Shown here: positions 21,001 to 27,000 of the stretch, in pieces
Position numbering within the stretch: the stretch's first letter is position 1
How the letters are laid out: each line of letters opens with the position of its first letter
NCBI GenBank assembly: GCA_963514005.1
Contig: OY740807.1
Span: 31,000,001 to 31,064,000, forward strand
DNA length: 64,000 nt
Source: Raja brachyura
Lineage: Eukaryota
Direction of reading: 5' to 3'
Made by a program: the position numbers

Positions 21001-24000
21001 TCCTTCTGCTACTGTTCCATGATTAAAGTTTAAAACGAGAAGTGGCACATGATATGTATGATATTATTTTTGGTTCATTCTATTGTACATTACTTCTAAT
21101 TAATTTTTTTTTTTAAAAAGGAATGTATGAATTGTTGCCATCGGGACGTGATGTACAAGCCTCCAGAAACCCTGGGTGGTGGGGCGGGGGTGAAAGACAA
21201 GACATACGTCCTCTTCCTGATTGTCATCTTTGTGTAGAAACAAGGAATTGCTGATGCTGGTTTGCACAAAGTGCTGGAGTAACTCAGCTGGTCAGGCAGC
21301 ATCTCTGGTGGACAGTGTGCATTATGGTTTGCCTTCTAGGCAGATGCTTTTCTTCCACTCTTTGGAGATTGATACATTTATGTGACATTCCTCAATTTAA
21401 CAAGTTAGTCGTGGAGGCGTTCTACTTACAGTAAACCTCTGCTGAAGCAATGAACAGAGAAATATCTTATAAACACTCAAAATGTTTTTGTGCAGTGTCA
21501 TCACCAGGCAATTTTAGTTTTGTGTTTTAACATTCAAAAGATGAAAATCATTTCAAATATAACAGCAAGTTAATTAGTTAGGATGGAAAAGGCATTTTCC
21601 ATGGAAAATGGATGGGAGTGCGGGCAACTTTTATCACATTTACTTTTCAAAGGTTCTTTCTATATTGGTTTATAAACAAAATTGCTGAACCATTGCCTTC
21701 TGAATCTAACAAGTCCCCAGAACCTCAAAGCTTTAAGGAGACACAGGAGACCTCAAATGCTGCAATCTTGAGGTACAATAATACAAAGTACTGGAGGAAC
21801 TTGGCTGGTCAAGCAGCATCTGTGGAGGGAAATGTTTCAGTCAGGATTCCGTACACAAGCTACCTGGCCCACTGAGTTCCCCAAATCACTTTGTTTTATC
21901 CTCATAGCTTAGGCCTGGAACTAGATAGCGTATCCTCCCTAAGTGAGTCTGAAGAAGGGTCTCGACCCAAAACATTCTTGATTAGTGCAGGTGTCAGAAG
22001 TTAAGGGGAGAAGGCAGGAGAGTGGGGTTAGAGGGAGAGATAGATCAGCCGCGATTGAATGGCGGAATGATGGGTCGAATGGCCTAATTCTGCTCCTATC
22101 TCATGACCTTATCACCCAAGCCTACTCTCCAGTGATGCTGCATGTCCCGCTGATTTACTCCAGCAGTTTGTGTGCATCCTCCCTAAAGGCCCTGTCTCAC
22201 GGTGCGAGTTGACCCACGAGGTACCCCGTGTGAAAGACTCGTGGTAGTGTACGAGATTTCAAGTTTATGATCAAGTGTTTAACCGAGTTCCCACGGGTAT
22301 GTCATTGCTGCGATGTTCCAACTTACTCTCCCGAGTTAACAAGTTCCTCTCCTGTTACTCTTGAGCCAACCGTGAATGAAGGTAAGTGTGTGAGGGGTGA
22401 GAAATCCATGCCGGGTGCCGGCCGGCCGCAGCCGCTGTTCAGATTGTTGGGAGACGGAGCTCAGGGTTCGCCTCTTGAGCTGCTTTGGTGCCCAGGCGTA
22501 AGTTGAGGTGGAAGGTGGTTGGGGGTGCGGGCTCGTCTTCTGAAGAAGGATCTCGACCCGCTGAATTACTCCAGCAGTGTTAAAGAAGGAACTGCAGATG
22601 CAGCAAAATCGAGCGTACACAAAATTCTGGAGAAACTCAGCGGGTGCAGCAGCATCTATAGAGCGAAGGGATGGGTGACAGGAGGGTCTCGACCTGCTGA
22701 AATTCTCCAGCATTTGGATCTAAACATCACCCATCCCTTCCCTCCAGAGATGCGGCCTGTCCCGCTGAGTTACTCCAGTTTGTTTGTGTCTATCGTTGAA
22801 TGGGTGACGTTTCGGGTCGAGACCCTTCTTCGGACTGAAAATAAAACTTGCCTCGCGTGAAGCGGCTTGTAAATTAAAACATAAAAACAAGAAACGCTAG
22901 ACTCATTTATGTGCTGCTATTCATTTACCTGGCCTGTTGCTGTCCTCCCTCGTCCACCGTGAGCGCTGGACAACTCACTGGCTGCAAAACTCCGCTGCAT
23001 TCCGGGCGGAGGGCGATGATCACCCGACTGACCGGCAAGTAGAGGCGGCGGGTCGGCCAAGCCCGGCTCCCTGCCACCGGGATAGACACCAACTACTGGA
23101 GTAAACTCAGCGGGATCTCTGGAGAAGTCTGAAGTAGGGTCTCGACACGAAATCTCACCCATCCCATCTCTCCAGAGATGCTGCCAGTCCCTCGGAGTTA
23201 CTCCAGCATTGTGTGTGTCTATGGGTTACACAAAAAGCTGGAGAAACTCAGCGGGTGCAGCAGCATCTAAGGAGCGAAGGAGATAGGCGACATTTCTGGC
23301 CGAGACCCTTCTTGTGTGTGTCTATCTTCGGTGCAAACCAGCATCTGCAGTTCCTTCCCAATCCCACACTCTCGGCCCCGGGGGGTGGATGGAGCATCAC
23401 ACGTGGACACAACCCACTCACTGCCCAGACTTGCCCCTCCGGCAGGTCTTTAACTGCGTCCTAAAGCCGTTCGTGTTAAAGAAGGAACTGCAGATGCTGG
23501 AGAATCGAGGGTTACACAAAAAGATGGAGAAACTCAGCGGGTGCAGCAGCATGAAGAAGGTCAGCAGGTCTGAAGAAGGGTCTCGACCCGAAACGTCGCC
23601 TATCTCCTGCGCTCCTTAGATGCTGCTGCACCCGCTGAGTTTCTCCAGCTTTTTGTGTAATCCTACAGCCGTTCATTGAGACGAATACGAAGCCACGGGG
23701 CAGGTGCCTCAGTAATAAAGGACAAGTTGCAGATCATCGCAGAAAGGCCGAAGATAGACACAAAATGCTGGAGTGGGACAGGCCGCATCTCTGGAGAGAA
23801 GGAATGGGTGGCGTTTCGGGTAAGTCTGAAGAAGGGTCTCGACTCCATTCCTTCTCTCCAGAGATGCTGCCTGGTCCACTGAGTTACTCCAGCATTTTGT
23901 GTCTATCTTTGGGTCAGTCTTTACTGGAGCGAACGAACAGATTATGAAACGTTCCCACGGTAGACTTTCGAGTCACTAAGGTAAACGCACGGGCCACTAC

Positions 24001-27000
24001 GTTACTACAACGAGTTTAAATGTTTCCATTTTTAACTTGAAGAGTTAATTTGACACGAGTTAACAAGTTTCCCGAGTGCCTGCCGTTAGCGCCACGAGTC
24101 GATAAGTTGCTCGTGCGAGTTCCGACGTTCCCGCTACGTGATCACCACGATTGAAAATTTGGGGTCACTCGTGGGCCAACTCGCACCGTGAGACAGGGGT
24201 TTAAGTCAGACAGTCAAGATAATTCTGGAAGAGGGGGAATTGCAGATGTGCCAGAGAGAAAAAAATAGGACAGGAAGAGAGAATAAAAGGCTTCATCACT
24301 TGCACTCATTTGTTCCTTCGGGGCACGAACCAGGATGGTCCTTCAAGCTACACAACAGTGCTACTAGCCCAAGCCCTAAACTTGTATTTGTACAATGCAG
24401 CAAAATACCCAGCCGGTAAATCACAAGCTGTACAGATACAGAGGTCACAGGCAGTGATCTCCAGTGATTCTCCCGACCCATTAGCATTTTGTGCCCATCT
24501 TCGGTATAAACGAGCATCTGCAGTTGACAAAGGGTCTCGACCCAAAACGTCACTTATTCCTATTCTCCAGAGATGCTGCCTGACCCGCTAAATTACTCCA
24601 GCATTTTGTGTCTGTCTGCAGTTCCTTCCTACACAGTTGAGCTTGGATATCATGACCCGAACTTGATAATTAATACGTCAAATCATCAATATGAATTTAG
24701 TTCAGGGTGCAACTAATACGCAAACTAAATGTCATCTTAGGAACTGACACCTTACACACTGAACGTGACGGAACAAAAATACATTTCATCTCGGGTAACC
24801 CAGTGTGAGTGTGTGATATATAGCAACAAGATCTCTGATTCAACATCTGCTGGTAGGCGAACTTTGGTGGCCACAGTTGAGAAACTATCGCAACGTTTCA
24901 GAAACATTTAGACGGGCACATGGATAGGACAGGTTTAGAGGGATATGGGCAAAATGCAGGCAGGCGGGAGTAGCGTAGATGGGACATGTTGGATGGTGTG
25001 GGCAAGTTGGGCCGAAGGGCCTGTTTCCATACTGTTGTGACTTTATGACTCTATAACTCTCTGCGCCACATAGGATGAAGAGGCCAAGCCCCATATTGTC
25101 CCCCACGGTTAGGGGAGTGCAGACACACATGGGTGACAGTTGGCACTGTGTCAAGACAGGTCCCCTCATTCTTATGTGCTTTATCAAATGTAGTTTTGTC
25201 AGTGAAGTTGCAGCTGCTACTTAGATAACACTTAAATCTTGCACAATTATCTCTTTCACTGACCAATTGCCATTTTCTATTAAAACAAAATGGCGCACTG
25301 GATTGGCATCCAACCATCCACCTCGACATTCCCTCCGAATGTTAACGTTCCAGTCTGAAGAATGGCTCCGACCCATTACATCGCCCATCCTTACTCTCCA
25401 GAGATGCTGCTTGACCCGCTGAGTTACTCCAGCACTTTGTGCCCATCTTCAACCTTCCCTCTACTACTCTGCTTTGCAACACCATGGCCATAGTGTGCCC
25501 CTTCTATAGGATGCACTGCATCGGTCTGCCAGGGCTTTTCAACATCAACTCCTAAAAGCACAATCTTTGCCATCTAAACACACGAGGACATCCGTCCCAT
25601 GGAAACATTTCACTTCCAGGTTTTTCTCAATGTAAAAACGTGCCCGGTGGGTATAATAGCAAAGAGTTTTACCTTGGACTTGTGGCACTGTTGGACATCT
25701 TGAAAGCCTAACTCCCAAACAAAGGATGCAACGAAAAGCAAGTGGTGACATGTTTTCTTCTCTTTTCCCATCCTTTTTTCCCCTCTCTGAAAAGTTGTAG
25801 ACCTGAAATATCAACTCTATTTTTCTTTCCACAGATGCTACCTGATCTGCTGAGAGTTTCCTGGATGAACTTTTTTTTAAATACGGTGAAATTTCCAGAG
25901 CATAAACTCCGTTCCTCTTTGCAAATGTCTGTCACATATAGCTGAGAGCAGGAATGGCCTTAGTTTAATTCCAATCTAAAATATCGCACCGCCAACTGGG
26001 CATTGCTACCTCATTACTGATCAACCCAATGGTCCTTGAGGTGGAGGCACTGTGATGCTTCCTTGAACTGTTCGACTCCACATTATGAAGATGCACCAAG
26101 AGAGCTGTTGAGCAGGGAGTTCGAGGACTTTGCTCAGCAACAATGAAAGAATATGGACGCGATGTAATAAGGATGTAATGCTGAAGCTCTGTAAGACACT
26201 GGTCGGACCGCATTTGAAGTATTGTGAAGTATTGGACCCCATATCTGAGGAAGGATGTGCTGGAGTTTGAGAGGGTCCAGAGGAGGTTTACGAGAATGAT
26301 CTCAGGGATAACTGGGTTAACATATGATGAGCGTTTGACGGCACTGGGCCTGTACTCGCTAGAGATCAGGAGGATGAGGGGGGACCTCATTGAAATTTAC
26401 CGAATAGTGAAAGGCCTGGAGACAGTGGATGTGGAGAACGTGCTTCCACTAGTGGGAGAGTCTAGGACCAGAGGCCATCGCCTCAGAATAAAAGGACGTA
26501 CCTTTAGAATGGAGATGAGGAGGAATTTCTCTGGTCAGCCAGTTGAGAATCGGTGAAGTTCATTGCCACAGAAGGCCGTGGCATCCAAGTCAATGGATAT
26601 CTTTAAGGCGGAGATTGATACGGTCTTGATTAGTACGGGTGCCAAAGTTTATTGGGAGAAGACAGGAGAATGGGGTTAGGATGGAAAGGAAGATCAGCCA
26701 TGATTGAATGGTGGAGTAACTTGATGGGCCGAATGGCCTAATTCTGTTCCAACAACTTATGAATAATGTTATACGTCGAAGTTGGGATGATGTGCCCCTT
26801 GGAAGTCCATCTTTATTCGCGCGTTATCGAACGTTCTTCTTTTATTTTAAGCACATGAATTGGAGCACCATCAAACCTCTCTGCTCCAGAAAATATAAGG
26901 CCAACCTATAGTTTCTCGCAAATCAGAGCTGTTACCAACCTACCTATTTACGGTTCAGTGTCTAAAACCGAACGTGGTGCCTCTGAATCTGCGCAGTAAT

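What the first reader, a model, noticed from the sequence alone, without database searches (positions are those of the whole stretch)
22187..24201. 2-kb Harbinger element carrying a dense cargo of hammerhead-bearing pLTR fragments
Between intact TIRs with perfect TAA TSDs lie roughly a dozen pLTR pieces of two subfamilies in both orientations (about 22538-22840, 23080-23360, 23475-23662, 23745-23910). They include the best-preserved ribozyme core (23566-23601) and a ~90-bp inverted pair (23223-23313 versus 23572-23662). This is the highest density in the window. Either the element is a PLE insertion hotspot, or a DNA transposon is transporting a ribozyme/dsRNA cassette (Pack-type), which could act as a mobile small-RNA trap.
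Basis: partly seen in the sequence, partly recalled or inferred. Interest (0 to 1): 0.65.

Follow-up and report, generated by a model that had tools for sequence, protein, structure and literature searches.

The report
Harbinger-type transposon riddled with Penelope fragments
A 2-kb non-coding DNA transposon of the Harbinger type has become a nest of short, ribozyme-bearing pieces of Penelope-like retroelements, which looks like ordinary layered junk DNA and not a purpose-built RNA cassette.

Summary
Window 22187-24201 has 41-45-nt terminal inverted repeats, TAA on both sides, subterminal CGAGTT arrays and no coding capacity. It is a non-autonomous PIF/Harbinger-type element. Two smaller elements in the window share its terminal motif.

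Its interior is 46% Penelope-like (PLE) units, against 7-8% elsewhere: 13 pieces in 4 clusters, of two subfamilies (A older, B younger). One copy (23570-23597) keeps a complete minimal-hammerhead core. No Rfam hammerhead model matches.

Three points argue against a dedicated cargo:
- At least two B units carry their own 14-nt target-site duplications, so they entered by retrotransposition.
- Nested B units sit antisense in A units at one shared breakpoint, as does an unrelated locus at 2.3 kb.
- Counted as clusters, the flanks are as enriched as the interior.

Inverted pairs, optional 3' tails and self-targeting are published PLE traits. My best reading is a self-seeding PLE nest inside and around a dead Harbinger copy.

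I could not test whether any pieces travelled with the Harbinger, because no eukaryotic genome collection was available. A small-RNA role is untested. Interest is low.

The parts
22184..22186 (.). left target-site duplication TAA
   Evidence: same triplet at 24202-24204
22187..22227 (+). left terminal inverted repeat
   Evidence: I7, 45 nt, 87%; 35 of 38 in core; 22-nt exact core found only at the two ends
22187..22537 (.). left subterminal backbone with CGAGTT/CACGAG motif array; unique in the window; CpG o/e 0.81
   Evidence: CGAGTT 7 observed vs 0.14 expected; all 9 CGAGT sites lie in 22205-22332 and 23969-24116
22538..22840 (.). PLE cluster 1. Deletion-variant A(+) piece 22539-22576; B(-) long form 22577-22679; a second copy of the deletion-variant piece 22678-22717 (a possible ~34-nt duplication, about 80% alike); A(+) 22722-22793; antisense hammerhead end 22798-22835
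   Evidence: no outer TSD (p 0.68)
22841..23078 (.). unique interior segment u1, GC 55%, CpG o/e 0.94, no coding signal
23079..23357 (.). PLE cluster 2. A(-) fragments 23079-23125 head-to-head with A(+) 23127-23222, which continues at 23314-23357. The A(+) copy is interrupted by the nested B(-) short form 23223-23313
   Evidence: nested B shown by the 14 of 14 TSD at 23209-23222 and 23312-23325
23358..23472 (.). unique interior segment u2; its last 14 nt (23459-23472) are the left TSD copy of cluster 3
23473..23660 (.). PLE cluster 3, one B-type insertion with an inverted 5' part. B(-) 3' part with tail 23473-23552; 15-nt filler 23553-23567; B(+) 23568-23660 with the intact minimal hammerhead core 23570-23597. 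Folds as a long hairpin
   Evidence: TSD 23459-23472 and 23661-23674, 13 of 14; fold -108 kcal/mol, z -10.9
23727..23914 (.). PLE cluster 4. Head-to-head A(-) 23727-23821 and A(+) 23824-23912. The + copy lacks 11 nt of the ribozyme core. Both are about 91-92% identical to the family majority consensus
   Evidence: no TSD detected (p 0.74)
23915..24201 (.). right subterminal backbone with CGAGT motif array (CpG o/e 1.49), ending in the right TIR 24161-24201
24202..24204 (.). right target-site duplication TAA
9615..10192 (.). second Harbinger-type non-autonomous element (578 bp) with the same terminal motif, TAA on both sides and no PLE hits
5494..5717 (.). third small element (224 bp) with the same terminal motif; TAA on the right side only (TGC on the left)
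2225..2435 (.). comparison locus outside the element. A(+) is interrupted by B(-) 2307-2399 with a 15 of 15 TSD (2292-2306 and 2400-2414). The breakpoint after CTCCAGCA is the same as in cluster 1

Best explanation
22187-24201 is one copy of a non-autonomous PIF/Harbinger-type DNA transposon. It has TIRs, a TAA duplication, subterminal binding-site-like CGAGTT arrays and no ORF. Its interior has become a nest of short units from the 3' end of Penelope-like retroelements (PLEs). Each unit starts at a minimal hammerhead motif and ends at one of two alternative 3' ends (with or without a ~25-35-nt tail).

Shown:
- The young B-type units entered by retrotransposition, because they carry their own 14-nt target duplications.
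- The nested ones lie antisense inside older A-type units.
- They break the host unit at the same place, after CTCCAGCA(TT), next to where the optional tail begins. The same happens at a locus outside the element.

Inferred:
- The PLE endonuclease, which is reported to recognise and cut PLE sequence itself near the tail, keeps returning to existing PLE pieces. One early A piece therefore seeds a growing compound nest.
- Cutting and extending both strands yields the inverted 5'-truncated partners, hence the hairpins.
- The Harbinger is a passive host, and the surrounding 2 kb on each side is part of the same nest-rich neighbourhood.
- The hammerhead at 23570-23597 is a well-kept relic of a recent B insertion. 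It would need a partner copy (dimer) to cleave, and nothing suggests selection on it here.
For: Harbinger assignment. TIR. TAA on both sides. CGAGTT 7 observed vs 0.14 expected and CACGAG 6 vs 0.16, confined to the two ends. Two other elements share the terminal motif: an invariant CCTGTC plus AC in 6 of 6 ends, and 5 of 6 ends abut TAA. No Pfam family passing its cut-off in 19 plus 16 ORFs.

PLE nature of the units.
- Catalytic boxes, an extra nucleotide before helix II, G-C closing helix II in 28 of 32 copies, and ACGT at helix III. These match the features listed in PMC4209133 (read, parts 1-2 of 4).
- 28 of 69 hits start at model positions 1-3. The 3' ends fall in two groups, about 30 at positions 92-107 and about 32 at 110-125 (counted by eye). 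This fits the optional tail between two RT start sites described in PMC11167929.
- 14 head-to-head inverted pairs, 4 inside and 10 outside the element (by eye). This fits the 'inverted 5'-truncated copy' of PMC8557442.

Nested retrotransposition. TSDs of 14 of 14, 13 of 14 and 15 of 15, each with 0 of 500 shuffles as good. B copies are 94-98% alike.

Shared breakpoint. Host A sequence ends at CTCCAGCA at 2306 and at 22576. At 23222 the TSD begins directly after CTCCAGCA.

Regional enrichment. Clusters per 2 kb are 4 inside, 5 left and 3 right, against 1.15 expected.

Age of the pieces. Pieces inside are as old as those outside: 79.5% vs 80.4% identity to the consensus, and 21 of 42 vs 86 of 198 consensus CpG sites kept.

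Published mechanism. The PLE protein cuts and extends both strands of a target made of its own ORF-pLTR junction. The D. virilis endonuclease needs the tail for recognition (PMC11167929, section 3 part 1 and passages).
Against: Timing is not established. Nothing in the window shows whether the pieces entered before or after this Harbinger copy reached this locus.

Clusters 1 (outer), 2 (outer) and 4 show no TSD (p 0.5-0.7), so insertion in place is not proven for them.

The backbone is CpG-rich (o/e 0.8-1.5, against 0.53 for the window), and all 6 CpGs of the two TIR cores are intact. PLE units in general have lost about half of their consensus CpGs. This could mean the Harbinger copy is younger than the older A pieces it holds, which would favour cargo.

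Counted by bases or by hits, the interior (46%, 13 hits) is denser than the flanks (31% and 17%; 8 and 4 hits). B-type copies are concentrated inside: 4 of the 7 with at most one mismatch.

The breakpoint recurrence rests on three events in one window.

No PLE reverse transcriptase or GIY-YIG ORF is present in the window to tie the units to a named PLE.
Confidence: 0.6

Rival explanations
1. Mobilised cargo. Some or all of the PLE pieces were already inside the element, either in its master copy or as filler DNA picked up during gap repair, when it last transposed. The Harbinger family would then spread a PLE hairpin/ribozyme block, like a Pack-type or composite non-autonomous element.
For: The backbone and TIR CpGs are undecayed while PLE units have lost about half of theirs. 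Clusters 1, 2 (outer) and 4 have no TSD. Cluster 1 is a patchwork of short fragments joined with deletions, as filler DNA would be. There are precedents: in Anolis, hobo-derived non-autonomous elements carry filler DNA holding other TEs, and Helitron-2N3 carries Poseidon (PLE) and SINE fragments (passages of PMC3014272).
Against: Two B blocks have private TSDs inside the element, so they were inserted, not captured, although this could have happened in a master copy. The flanks are equally enriched by cluster count. The window holds no second copy to show shared junctions. The two other elements with the same terminal motif hold no PLE hits, but they total only about 0.8 kb. No host-gene fragment was found.
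Confidence: 0.27
2. Functional cassette. The inverted PLE pairs and the intact hammerhead are maintained because transcripts of the element give dsRNA, piRNA or siRNA against PLEs, or self-cleaving or circular RNAs.
For: Long near-perfect inverted pairs: 91 nt at 95% and 45 nt at 96%. Cluster 3 folds at -108 kcal/mol, z -10.9. Of the 4 PLE-type inverted pairs of at least 40 nt within 600 nt in the window, 3 are in the element. One complete minimal hammerhead core is present.
Against: There is no sign of selection. Structure counts on 32 copies do not exceed shuffles (covariation score reached by 299 of 500 shuffles), and CpG decay breaks the ACGT palindrome in many copies. Only 1 of the 5 hammerhead segments in the element that were aligned keeps the strict core. 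The hammerhead fold is not the minimum-energy fold as a monomer (-8.9 vs -9.3 kcal/mol) or as a dimer (-16.1 vs -27.9). There is no head-to-tail array as in retrozymes. No Rfam match. Such hairpins are the normal product of PLE integration (PMC8557442). PLE min-hammerheads cleave poorly in vitro (PMC4209133), and cleavage was not needed for insertion in vitro (PMC11167929).
Confidence: 0.05
3. Artefact. The block is a mis-assembly of short repeats, or the TIR and TAA are coincidental and there is no DNA transposon.
For: The region is built from 90-130-nt repeats that are up to 97% alike, which short-read assemblers can tangle. PMC8557442 notes that PLE structures trouble shotgun assemblies.
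Against: There are no N runs near the region; the only ones are at 34566-34723 and 35724-36087. Internal TSDs are coherent. A 22-nt exact TIR core was matched by none of 100 shuffles. The motif arrays are confined to both ends. Two further elements have the same termini and TAA.
Confidence: 0.04

Closest known systems
Non-autonomous PIF/Harbinger elements (Tourist-like MITEs and longer deletion derivatives)
   Same: 3-bp TAA target duplication, TIRs, subterminal short-motif arrays, no transposase. PMC3014272 (passage) gives 14-25-nt TIRs and TTA/TAA TSDs as characteristic of Harbinger.
   Different: The TIR is longer here (about 41-45 nt). No autonomous partner with a DDE transposase and Myb-like ORF was seen. 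Copy number in the genome is unknown. The likeness of the GGSCCTGT terminus to plant PIF/Tourist termini is my recollection and was not tested.
Minimal hammerheads in pseudo-LTRs of Penelope-like elements (Cervera and De la Pena 2014, PMC4209133)
   Same: [quoted passage not shown] Mostly solitary truncated copies. Pairs on opposite strands 100-700 nt apart.
   Different: Helix II has only 4 bp here, against the 6-8 bp reported for S. mansoni (7-8) and D. virilis (6). Helix I has about 2 bp in most copies and 4 bp in the 23568 copy. No PLE ORF is in the window, so the PLE clade (Poseidon, Neptune or other) is unassigned. Cleavage is untested. The paper's supplementary catalogues of fish families were not visible to me.
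PLE insertion architecture (PMC8557442; PMC11167929)
   Same: Strong 5' truncation, an adjacent inverted 5'-truncated copy, an optional 3' tail, variable TSDs, and insertion into PLE sequence itself.
   Different: The units here are only 95-125 nt with a sharp 5' start at the ribozyme (28 of 69), which is more like a discrete short non-autonomous unit than random truncation. Antisense nesting of one subfamily in another at one breakpoint is not something I saw described in the parts of these papers that I read.
Composite DNA transposons that carry other TEs (Anolis hobo-N families; Helitron-2N3 with Poseidon and SINE pieces, PMC3014272) and Pack-MULE/Pack-CACTA (the latter recalled, not read)
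   Same: A TIR-bounded non-autonomous element whose interior is largely foreign repeat DNA.
   Different: Pack elements are defined by host-gene fragments shared among copies. No gene fragment was found here, and sharing among copies could not be tested.
Animal non-LTR retrozymes (PMC7229834 seen in the search listing only; bioRxiv 10.64898/2026.07.22.740005, abstract and Results part 1 read)
   Same: Type-I hammerhead units related to PLE pLTRs; monomers dispersed in vertebrate genomes.
   Different: Retrozymes are head-to-tail tandem arrays. No such array exists in 20000-26000.

Membership tests
PIF/Harbinger (non-autonomous) | 3-bp TTA/TAA target-site duplication | tested here: met
   TAA at 22184-22186 and 24202-24204. 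Among three elements sharing the terminal motif, 5 of 6 ends abut TAA.
PIF/Harbinger (non-autonomous) | terminal inverted repeats | tested here: met
   45 nt at 87%; 35 of 38 in the core; exact 22-mer found only at both ends.
PIF/Harbinger (non-autonomous) | DDE transposase and Myb-like ORF (autonomous form), or demonstrable descent from such an element | tested here: not met
   No Pfam family at or above its cut-off in 16 ORFs of at least 45 aa in the element (E<=1), nor in 19 larger ORFs window-wide. This is expected for a non-autonomous copy. The partner element was not found.
PIF/Harbinger (non-autonomous) | several copies in the genome with the same ends | not testable with these tools
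   One copy in the window.
PLE minimal hammerhead | conserved boxes CUGANGA ... GAAA ... UH | tested here: met
   10 strict matches in the window, one at 23570-23597.
PLE minimal hammerhead | [quoted passage not shown] | tested here: met
   Column 18 is A in most of the 32 aligned copies. Pair 19-31 is G-C in 28 of 32.
PLE minimal hammerhead | palindromic 15.2-16.2 (dimer helix III) | tested here: met
   ACGT in the consensus. C-G in 14 of 32 copies, with the other copies mostly showing CpG-decay variants (TG, CA).
PLE minimal hammerhead | helix I of 4-5 bp | tested here: inconclusive
   The two innermost pairs form in 25 and 24 of 32 copies, and the third in 5 of 32. The 23568 copy can form 4 bp.
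PLE minimal hammerhead | covariation supporting the fold | tested here: not met
   The covariation score of 0.137 was reached by 299 of 500 shuffles. The copies are decaying relics from one window, so this is a weak test.
PLE minimal hammerhead | self-cleavage | not testable with these tools
   Needs transcription of dimeric constructs. Energy models do not favour the hammerhead fold.
Rfam hammerhead families | match to a curated covariance model | tested here: not met
   No match at gathering scores in the whole window. No hammerhead family at E<=10 in 21500-25000.
Penelope-like element (as retroelement copy) | RT plus GIY-YIG ORF between pseudo-LTRs | tested here: not met
   The longest stop-to-stop ORF in the window is 279 aa, and the ORFs tested have no Pfam family. 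Only terminal units are present.
Penelope-like element (as retroelement copy) | inverted 5'-truncated partner, optional 30-40-nt tail, TSDs | tested here: met
   14 head-to-head pairs and two classes of 3' end (counted by eye). TSDs of 14-15 nt.
Pack-type transposon | host-gene fragments between the TIRs | tested here: not met
   No Pfam signal. A protein search with a junction-spanning ORF gave 10 candidates and 0 significant hits.
Pack-type transposon | the same cargo and junctions in several transposed copies | not testable with these tools
   No other copy in the window, and no genome collection for this organism.
Non-LTR retrozyme | head-to-tail tandem array of hammerhead units | tested here: not met
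   Tandem Repeats Finder on 20000-26000 found only 5 short arrays of period 7-15.

The most novel reading that the evidence does not exclude
The Harbinger family itself carries the PLE hairpin/hammerhead nest and spreads it by cut-and-paste. A DNA transposon would then disseminate ready-made dsRNA-forming decoys of a retroelement, which also act as landing pads for that retroelement's endonuclease. That would be a mobile trap and small-RNA source directed against PLEs.
Probability: 0.07. Interest if true: 0.55.

Novelty: new member of a known kind. Interest (0 to 1): 0.2.

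Why it matters
As it stands this is a tidy example of layered transposon history, not a new system. Its modest value lies in three points.

1. It documents a family of minimal, dimer-type hammerhead units with two alternative 3' ends. This fits the recently described internal RT start sites of PLEs.

2. Within one window it shows young PLE units re-entering older ones antisense at one breakpoint. If that holds genome-wide, it would be a natural read-out of the self-recognition seen for PLE endonucleases in vitro, and it would explain how hairpin-rich PLE nests grow.

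3. It flags three Harbinger-type non-autonomous elements that share a terminal motif.

If the cargo reading were true, a DNA transposon would be multiplying retroelement hairpins, which bears on how small-RNA-producing loci arise.

Tried and rejected
- Rfam over the whole window at gathering scores and over 21500-25000 at E<=10. No hammerhead family matched. The miRNA-model hits are generic long-hairpin matches far below their gathering scores, and I rejected them.
- Pfam on 19 window ORFs and on 16 ORFs of at least 45 aa in the element at E<=1. The only result was a sub-threshold Pap_E4 hit (16.6 bits against a cut-off of 27), rejected as noise.
- Protein-database search with the junction-spanning ORF 22339-22719(-), hoping to catch other genomic copies. 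It gave 10 candidates, none significant. I spent no further searches on this route.
- Full-text searches for two exact repeat strings returned 0 papers. A search for Harbinger, Penelope, nested and hammerhead showed no paper on this combination among the 15 listed of 48.
- I tested whether the A copy that ends 5 nt left of the element resumes after it (empty-site join). It does not, so the order of those two events is unknown.
- CpG decay as a clock was inconclusive. The backbone is CpG-rich, and the pieces inside are about as decayed as those outside.
- Covariation test of the hammerhead fold gave no signal beyond shuffles.
- Cofold of two copies. In one search my first dimer string was not nested and gave a meaningless energy. 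I corrected it. The double hammerhead is feasible but is not the minimum-energy fold.
- Outer TSDs for clusters 1, 2 and 4 were not found.
- I did not use the genome-contig collection, because it holds prokaryotes only.

Full report
**What is there**

The window is repeat-rich, moderately CpG-depleted eukaryotic DNA (CpG o/e 0.53). It has no long ORFs: the longest stop-to-stop frame is 279 aa. I did not establish the taxon. Nothing suggested human sequence. The two N runs lie far from the finding and were left alone.

**The Harbinger-type element**

- Positions 22187-24201 are bounded by inverted arms of 45 nt at 87% complementarity.
- A local alignment of the left 354 nt against the reverse complement of the right 289 nt finds only this terminal match, 35 of 38 identical.
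- A 22-nt exact core occurs at the two ends and nowhere else in the window, with 0 of 100 shuffles giving any match.
- TAA flanks both ends. The outermost four bases of the two ends differ.
- The two subterminal regions carry an array of CpG-containing hexamers: CGAGTT 7 times against 0.14 expected, and CACGAG 6 times against 0.16. All 9 CGAGT sites of the element lie in 22205-22332 or 23969-24116. This is what transposase or Myb-protein binding arrays look like (inference).
- No ORF of the element has a Pfam match at or above its cut-off.
- The ends and the three interior spacer segments have no other copy in the window.

Independent support came from a window-wide inverted-repeat scan and a motif search. 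Two smaller elements, 9615-10192 and 5494-5717, have different interiors but the same terminus. In an alignment of all six ends, CCTGTC and a following AC are invariant, and five of six ends abut TAA. TTA/TAA duplications and TIRs are the stated hallmarks of Harbinger (passage of PMC3014272). I therefore accept 'non-autonomous PIF/Harbinger-type element'. An autonomous partner and genomic copy number are untested.

**The repeat pieces**

An nhmmer profile iterated three times from one window copy gives a unit of about 125 nt and 69 hits in the window.

Coverage is 926 of 2015 bases (46%) against 7.9% outside, the highest in the window.

Two subfamilies are clear. A is common: 24 matches to a 25-nt diagnostic string at up to 3 mismatches. 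B is rarer: 7 matches at up to 1 mismatch, 4 of them in the element. B copies are 94-98% alike. A pieces are 80-92% identical to a reference A copy.

**The ribozyme**

Each unit begins with CTGAAGA, one extra A, a GGGT/ACCC stem with a 4-nt loop, GAAA, and ACGT followed by C. The paper that described minimal hammerheads in PLE pseudo-LTRs (PMC4209133, parts 1-2 of 4 read) lists four non-trivial features:
- the catalytic boxes;
- a G10.1-C11.1 pair;
- a palindromic 15.2-16.2 that implies a dimeric helix III.

All four are present in the family consensus.

Further tests gave the following:
- The strict core survives in 10 places in the window, one of them in the element at 23570-23597.
- In 32 aligned copies helix II is paired in 89% of cells, the trans helix III in 78% and helix I in 56% (effectively 2 bp). 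There is no covariation beyond shuffles.
- Many copies show CG-to-TG or CG-to-CA changes in the ACGT palindrome, which indicates neutral decay.
- No Rfam hammerhead model matches.
- The hammerhead fold is not the predicted minimum as a monomer (-8.9 vs -9.3 kcal/mol) or as a double hammerhead (-16.1 vs -27.9).

'Hammerhead-bearing' is therefore justified by motif. Activity is unknown, and the published min-hammerheads cleave poorly in vitro (PMC4209133).

**Why the pieces are PLE insertions**

- 28 of 69 hits start at model positions 1-3. Their 3' ends fall in two groups, about 30 at positions 92-107 and about 32 at 110-125 (counted by eye). B likewise exists as a ~93-nt form and as a form with a ~36-nt extension. 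This is the optional 'tail' of PLEs, recently explained by two internal RT start sites (PMC11167929).
- Fourteen head-to-head inverted pairs occur, 10 of them outside the element (by eye). [quoted passage not shown]
- Three B insertions have clean target duplications, each with 0 of 500 shuffles as good:
  - 23223-23313, TSD 14 of 14;
  - 23473-23660, TSD 13 of 14;
  - 2307-2399 (outside the element), TSD 15 of 15.
- No PLE reverse transcriptase or endonuclease ORF is in the window, so the clade is unassigned.

**How the nest grew**

The B copy at 23223-23313 interrupts an A(+) copy. So does the B copy at 2307-2399, at an unrelated locus, with a different TSD. These are independent events.

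A third B copy (22577-22679) is flanked by two copies of a deletion-variant A piece. That junction occurs nowhere else in the window. The two copies are about 34 nt long and roughly 80% alike, which may be a long TSD.

In all three cases B is antisense to A. One break lies at the same place: after CTCCAGCA at 2306 and at 22576, and directly before the TSD that starts there at 23209.

The fourth young B insertion (cluster 3) is in unique DNA.

Published work reports that the Anolis PLE protein cuts and extends both strands of a target made of its own ORF-pLTR junction, with a preference for an ATT motif. It also reports that the D. virilis Penelope endonuclease needs the tail sequence for recognition (PMC11167929, section 3 part 1 and passages).

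My inference is that existing PLE pieces attract new ones. This accounts for compound clusters, antisense pairs and hairpins without giving the Harbinger any role. The sample is three events in one window, so this is a lead and not a result.

**Hotspot or cargo**

Merging hits that lie within 60 nt gives 45 clusters in the window:

| Region | Clusters | Expected | P | Base coverage | Hits |
|---|---|---|---|---|---|
| Element | 4 | 1.16 | 0.03 | 46% | 13 |
| Left 2 kb | 5 | 1.15 | 0.006 | 31% | 8 |
| Right 2 kb | 3 | 1.15 | 0.11 | 17% | 4 |

By independent sites, the enrichment is regional and ignores the TIR boundaries. What sets the interior apart is cluster complexity: 13 hits in 4 clusters.

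Pieces inside are as diverged as pieces outside: 79.5% vs 80.4% identity to the majority consensus, and 21 of 42 vs 86 of 198 consensus CpG sites kept.

Some evidence points the other way:
- By bases and by hits the interior is denser than the flanks.
- B copies are concentrated inside.
- Three clusters lack outer TSDs.
- The backbone is CpG-rich (o/e 0.8-1.5), and all six TIR-core CpGs are intact. This could mean the Harbinger copy is younger than the older A pieces it contains.

Precedents for DNA transposons that carry other TEs exist, including Poseidon fragments (PMC3014272). I put cargo at about one in four.

The test that decides this is comparing other genomic copies.

**Function**

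The long inverted pairs are real. They are 91 nt at 95% and 45 nt at 96%, and cluster 3 folds at -108 kcal/mol with z -10.9. Three of the four PLE-type pairs of at least 40 nt within 600 nt in the window lie in the element. They would form dsRNA if transcribed.

They are also what PLE integration normally produces. There is no head-to-tail array as in retrozymes. Nothing indicates selection. I rate a dedicated small-RNA or ribozyme role at about 5%.

**Literature limits**

- Read: parts 1-2 of 4 of PMC4209133; section 3 part 1 and search passages of PMC11167929; search passages of PMC8557442 and PMC3014272; the abstract and Results part 1 of bioRxiv 10.64898/2026.07.22.740005.
- Supplementary catalogues were closed. 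Those of PMC4209133 may already list this hammerhead family.
- Two exact-string searches and one keyword search found no paper on this repeat or on this combination.
- Repbase and Dfam could not be consulted. The element families may already be catalogued there.

**Verdict**

The feature is an ordinary, if neat, transposon nest. It has one testable side lead (site-specific antisense re-entry of PLE units) and one unresolved alternative (mobilised cargo).

Noticed in passing
window 9615-10192 and 5494-5717: Two further non-autonomous Harbinger-type elements (578 and 224 bp) share the terminal motif (A/G)(G/A)(G/C)CCTGTC..AC with the 2-kb element but have unrelated interiors. The first has TAA on both sides. 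The second has TAA only on the right. The first also carries an internal near-repeat of its own left end (TIR-like match at 9702-9718).
   Followed up: partly
window 2292-2414, 22543-22712, 23209-23325: Three independent B-type PLE units sit antisense inside A-type units and share one breakpoint after CTCCAGCA, close to where the optional tail begins. This suggests sequence-specific re-entry of PLE units into older copies.
   Followed up: partly
window 5236-5352, 9461-9573, 22110-22181: Each of the three Harbinger-type elements has a PLE unit within about 5-140 nt of its left end. With about 0.6-0.7 clusters per kb this is only mildly unexpected, and the geometry differs among the three.
   Followed up: no
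window 24455-24623: A 5'-truncated A unit (model positions 40-121) is directly followed by a nearly full unit (4-102) in the same orientation. This is the partial-tandem arrangement that defines a pseudo-LTR.
   Followed up: no
window, e.g. 51546-51860, 52293-52598, 754-1059, 8460-8760, 56495-56789; also 43432-43874 vs 54008-54449: Other abundant interspersed families are present. One is a ~300-nt family, some copies of which contain a tRNA-like GGTTCGATCC box (49801-49846 and 50081-50126), so it is probably a tRNA-derived SINE. Another is a ~440-nt family, with copies at 43432-43874 and 54008-54449 that are 93% alike. Neither was analysed.
   Followed up: no
window 22551-22575 and 22687-22711: The deletion junction that joins the helix II end directly to CTGA..TTACTCCAGC, skipping about 40 nt between two CCCG repeats, occurs only at these two places in the window, on either side of a B unit. 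It is either a ~34-nt target duplication or a local duplication.
   Followed up: partly
window 34801-34880 vs 35110-35189: An 80-nt inverted pair at 85%, between the two N runs. It was not examined, and the N runs were left as they are.
   Followed up: no
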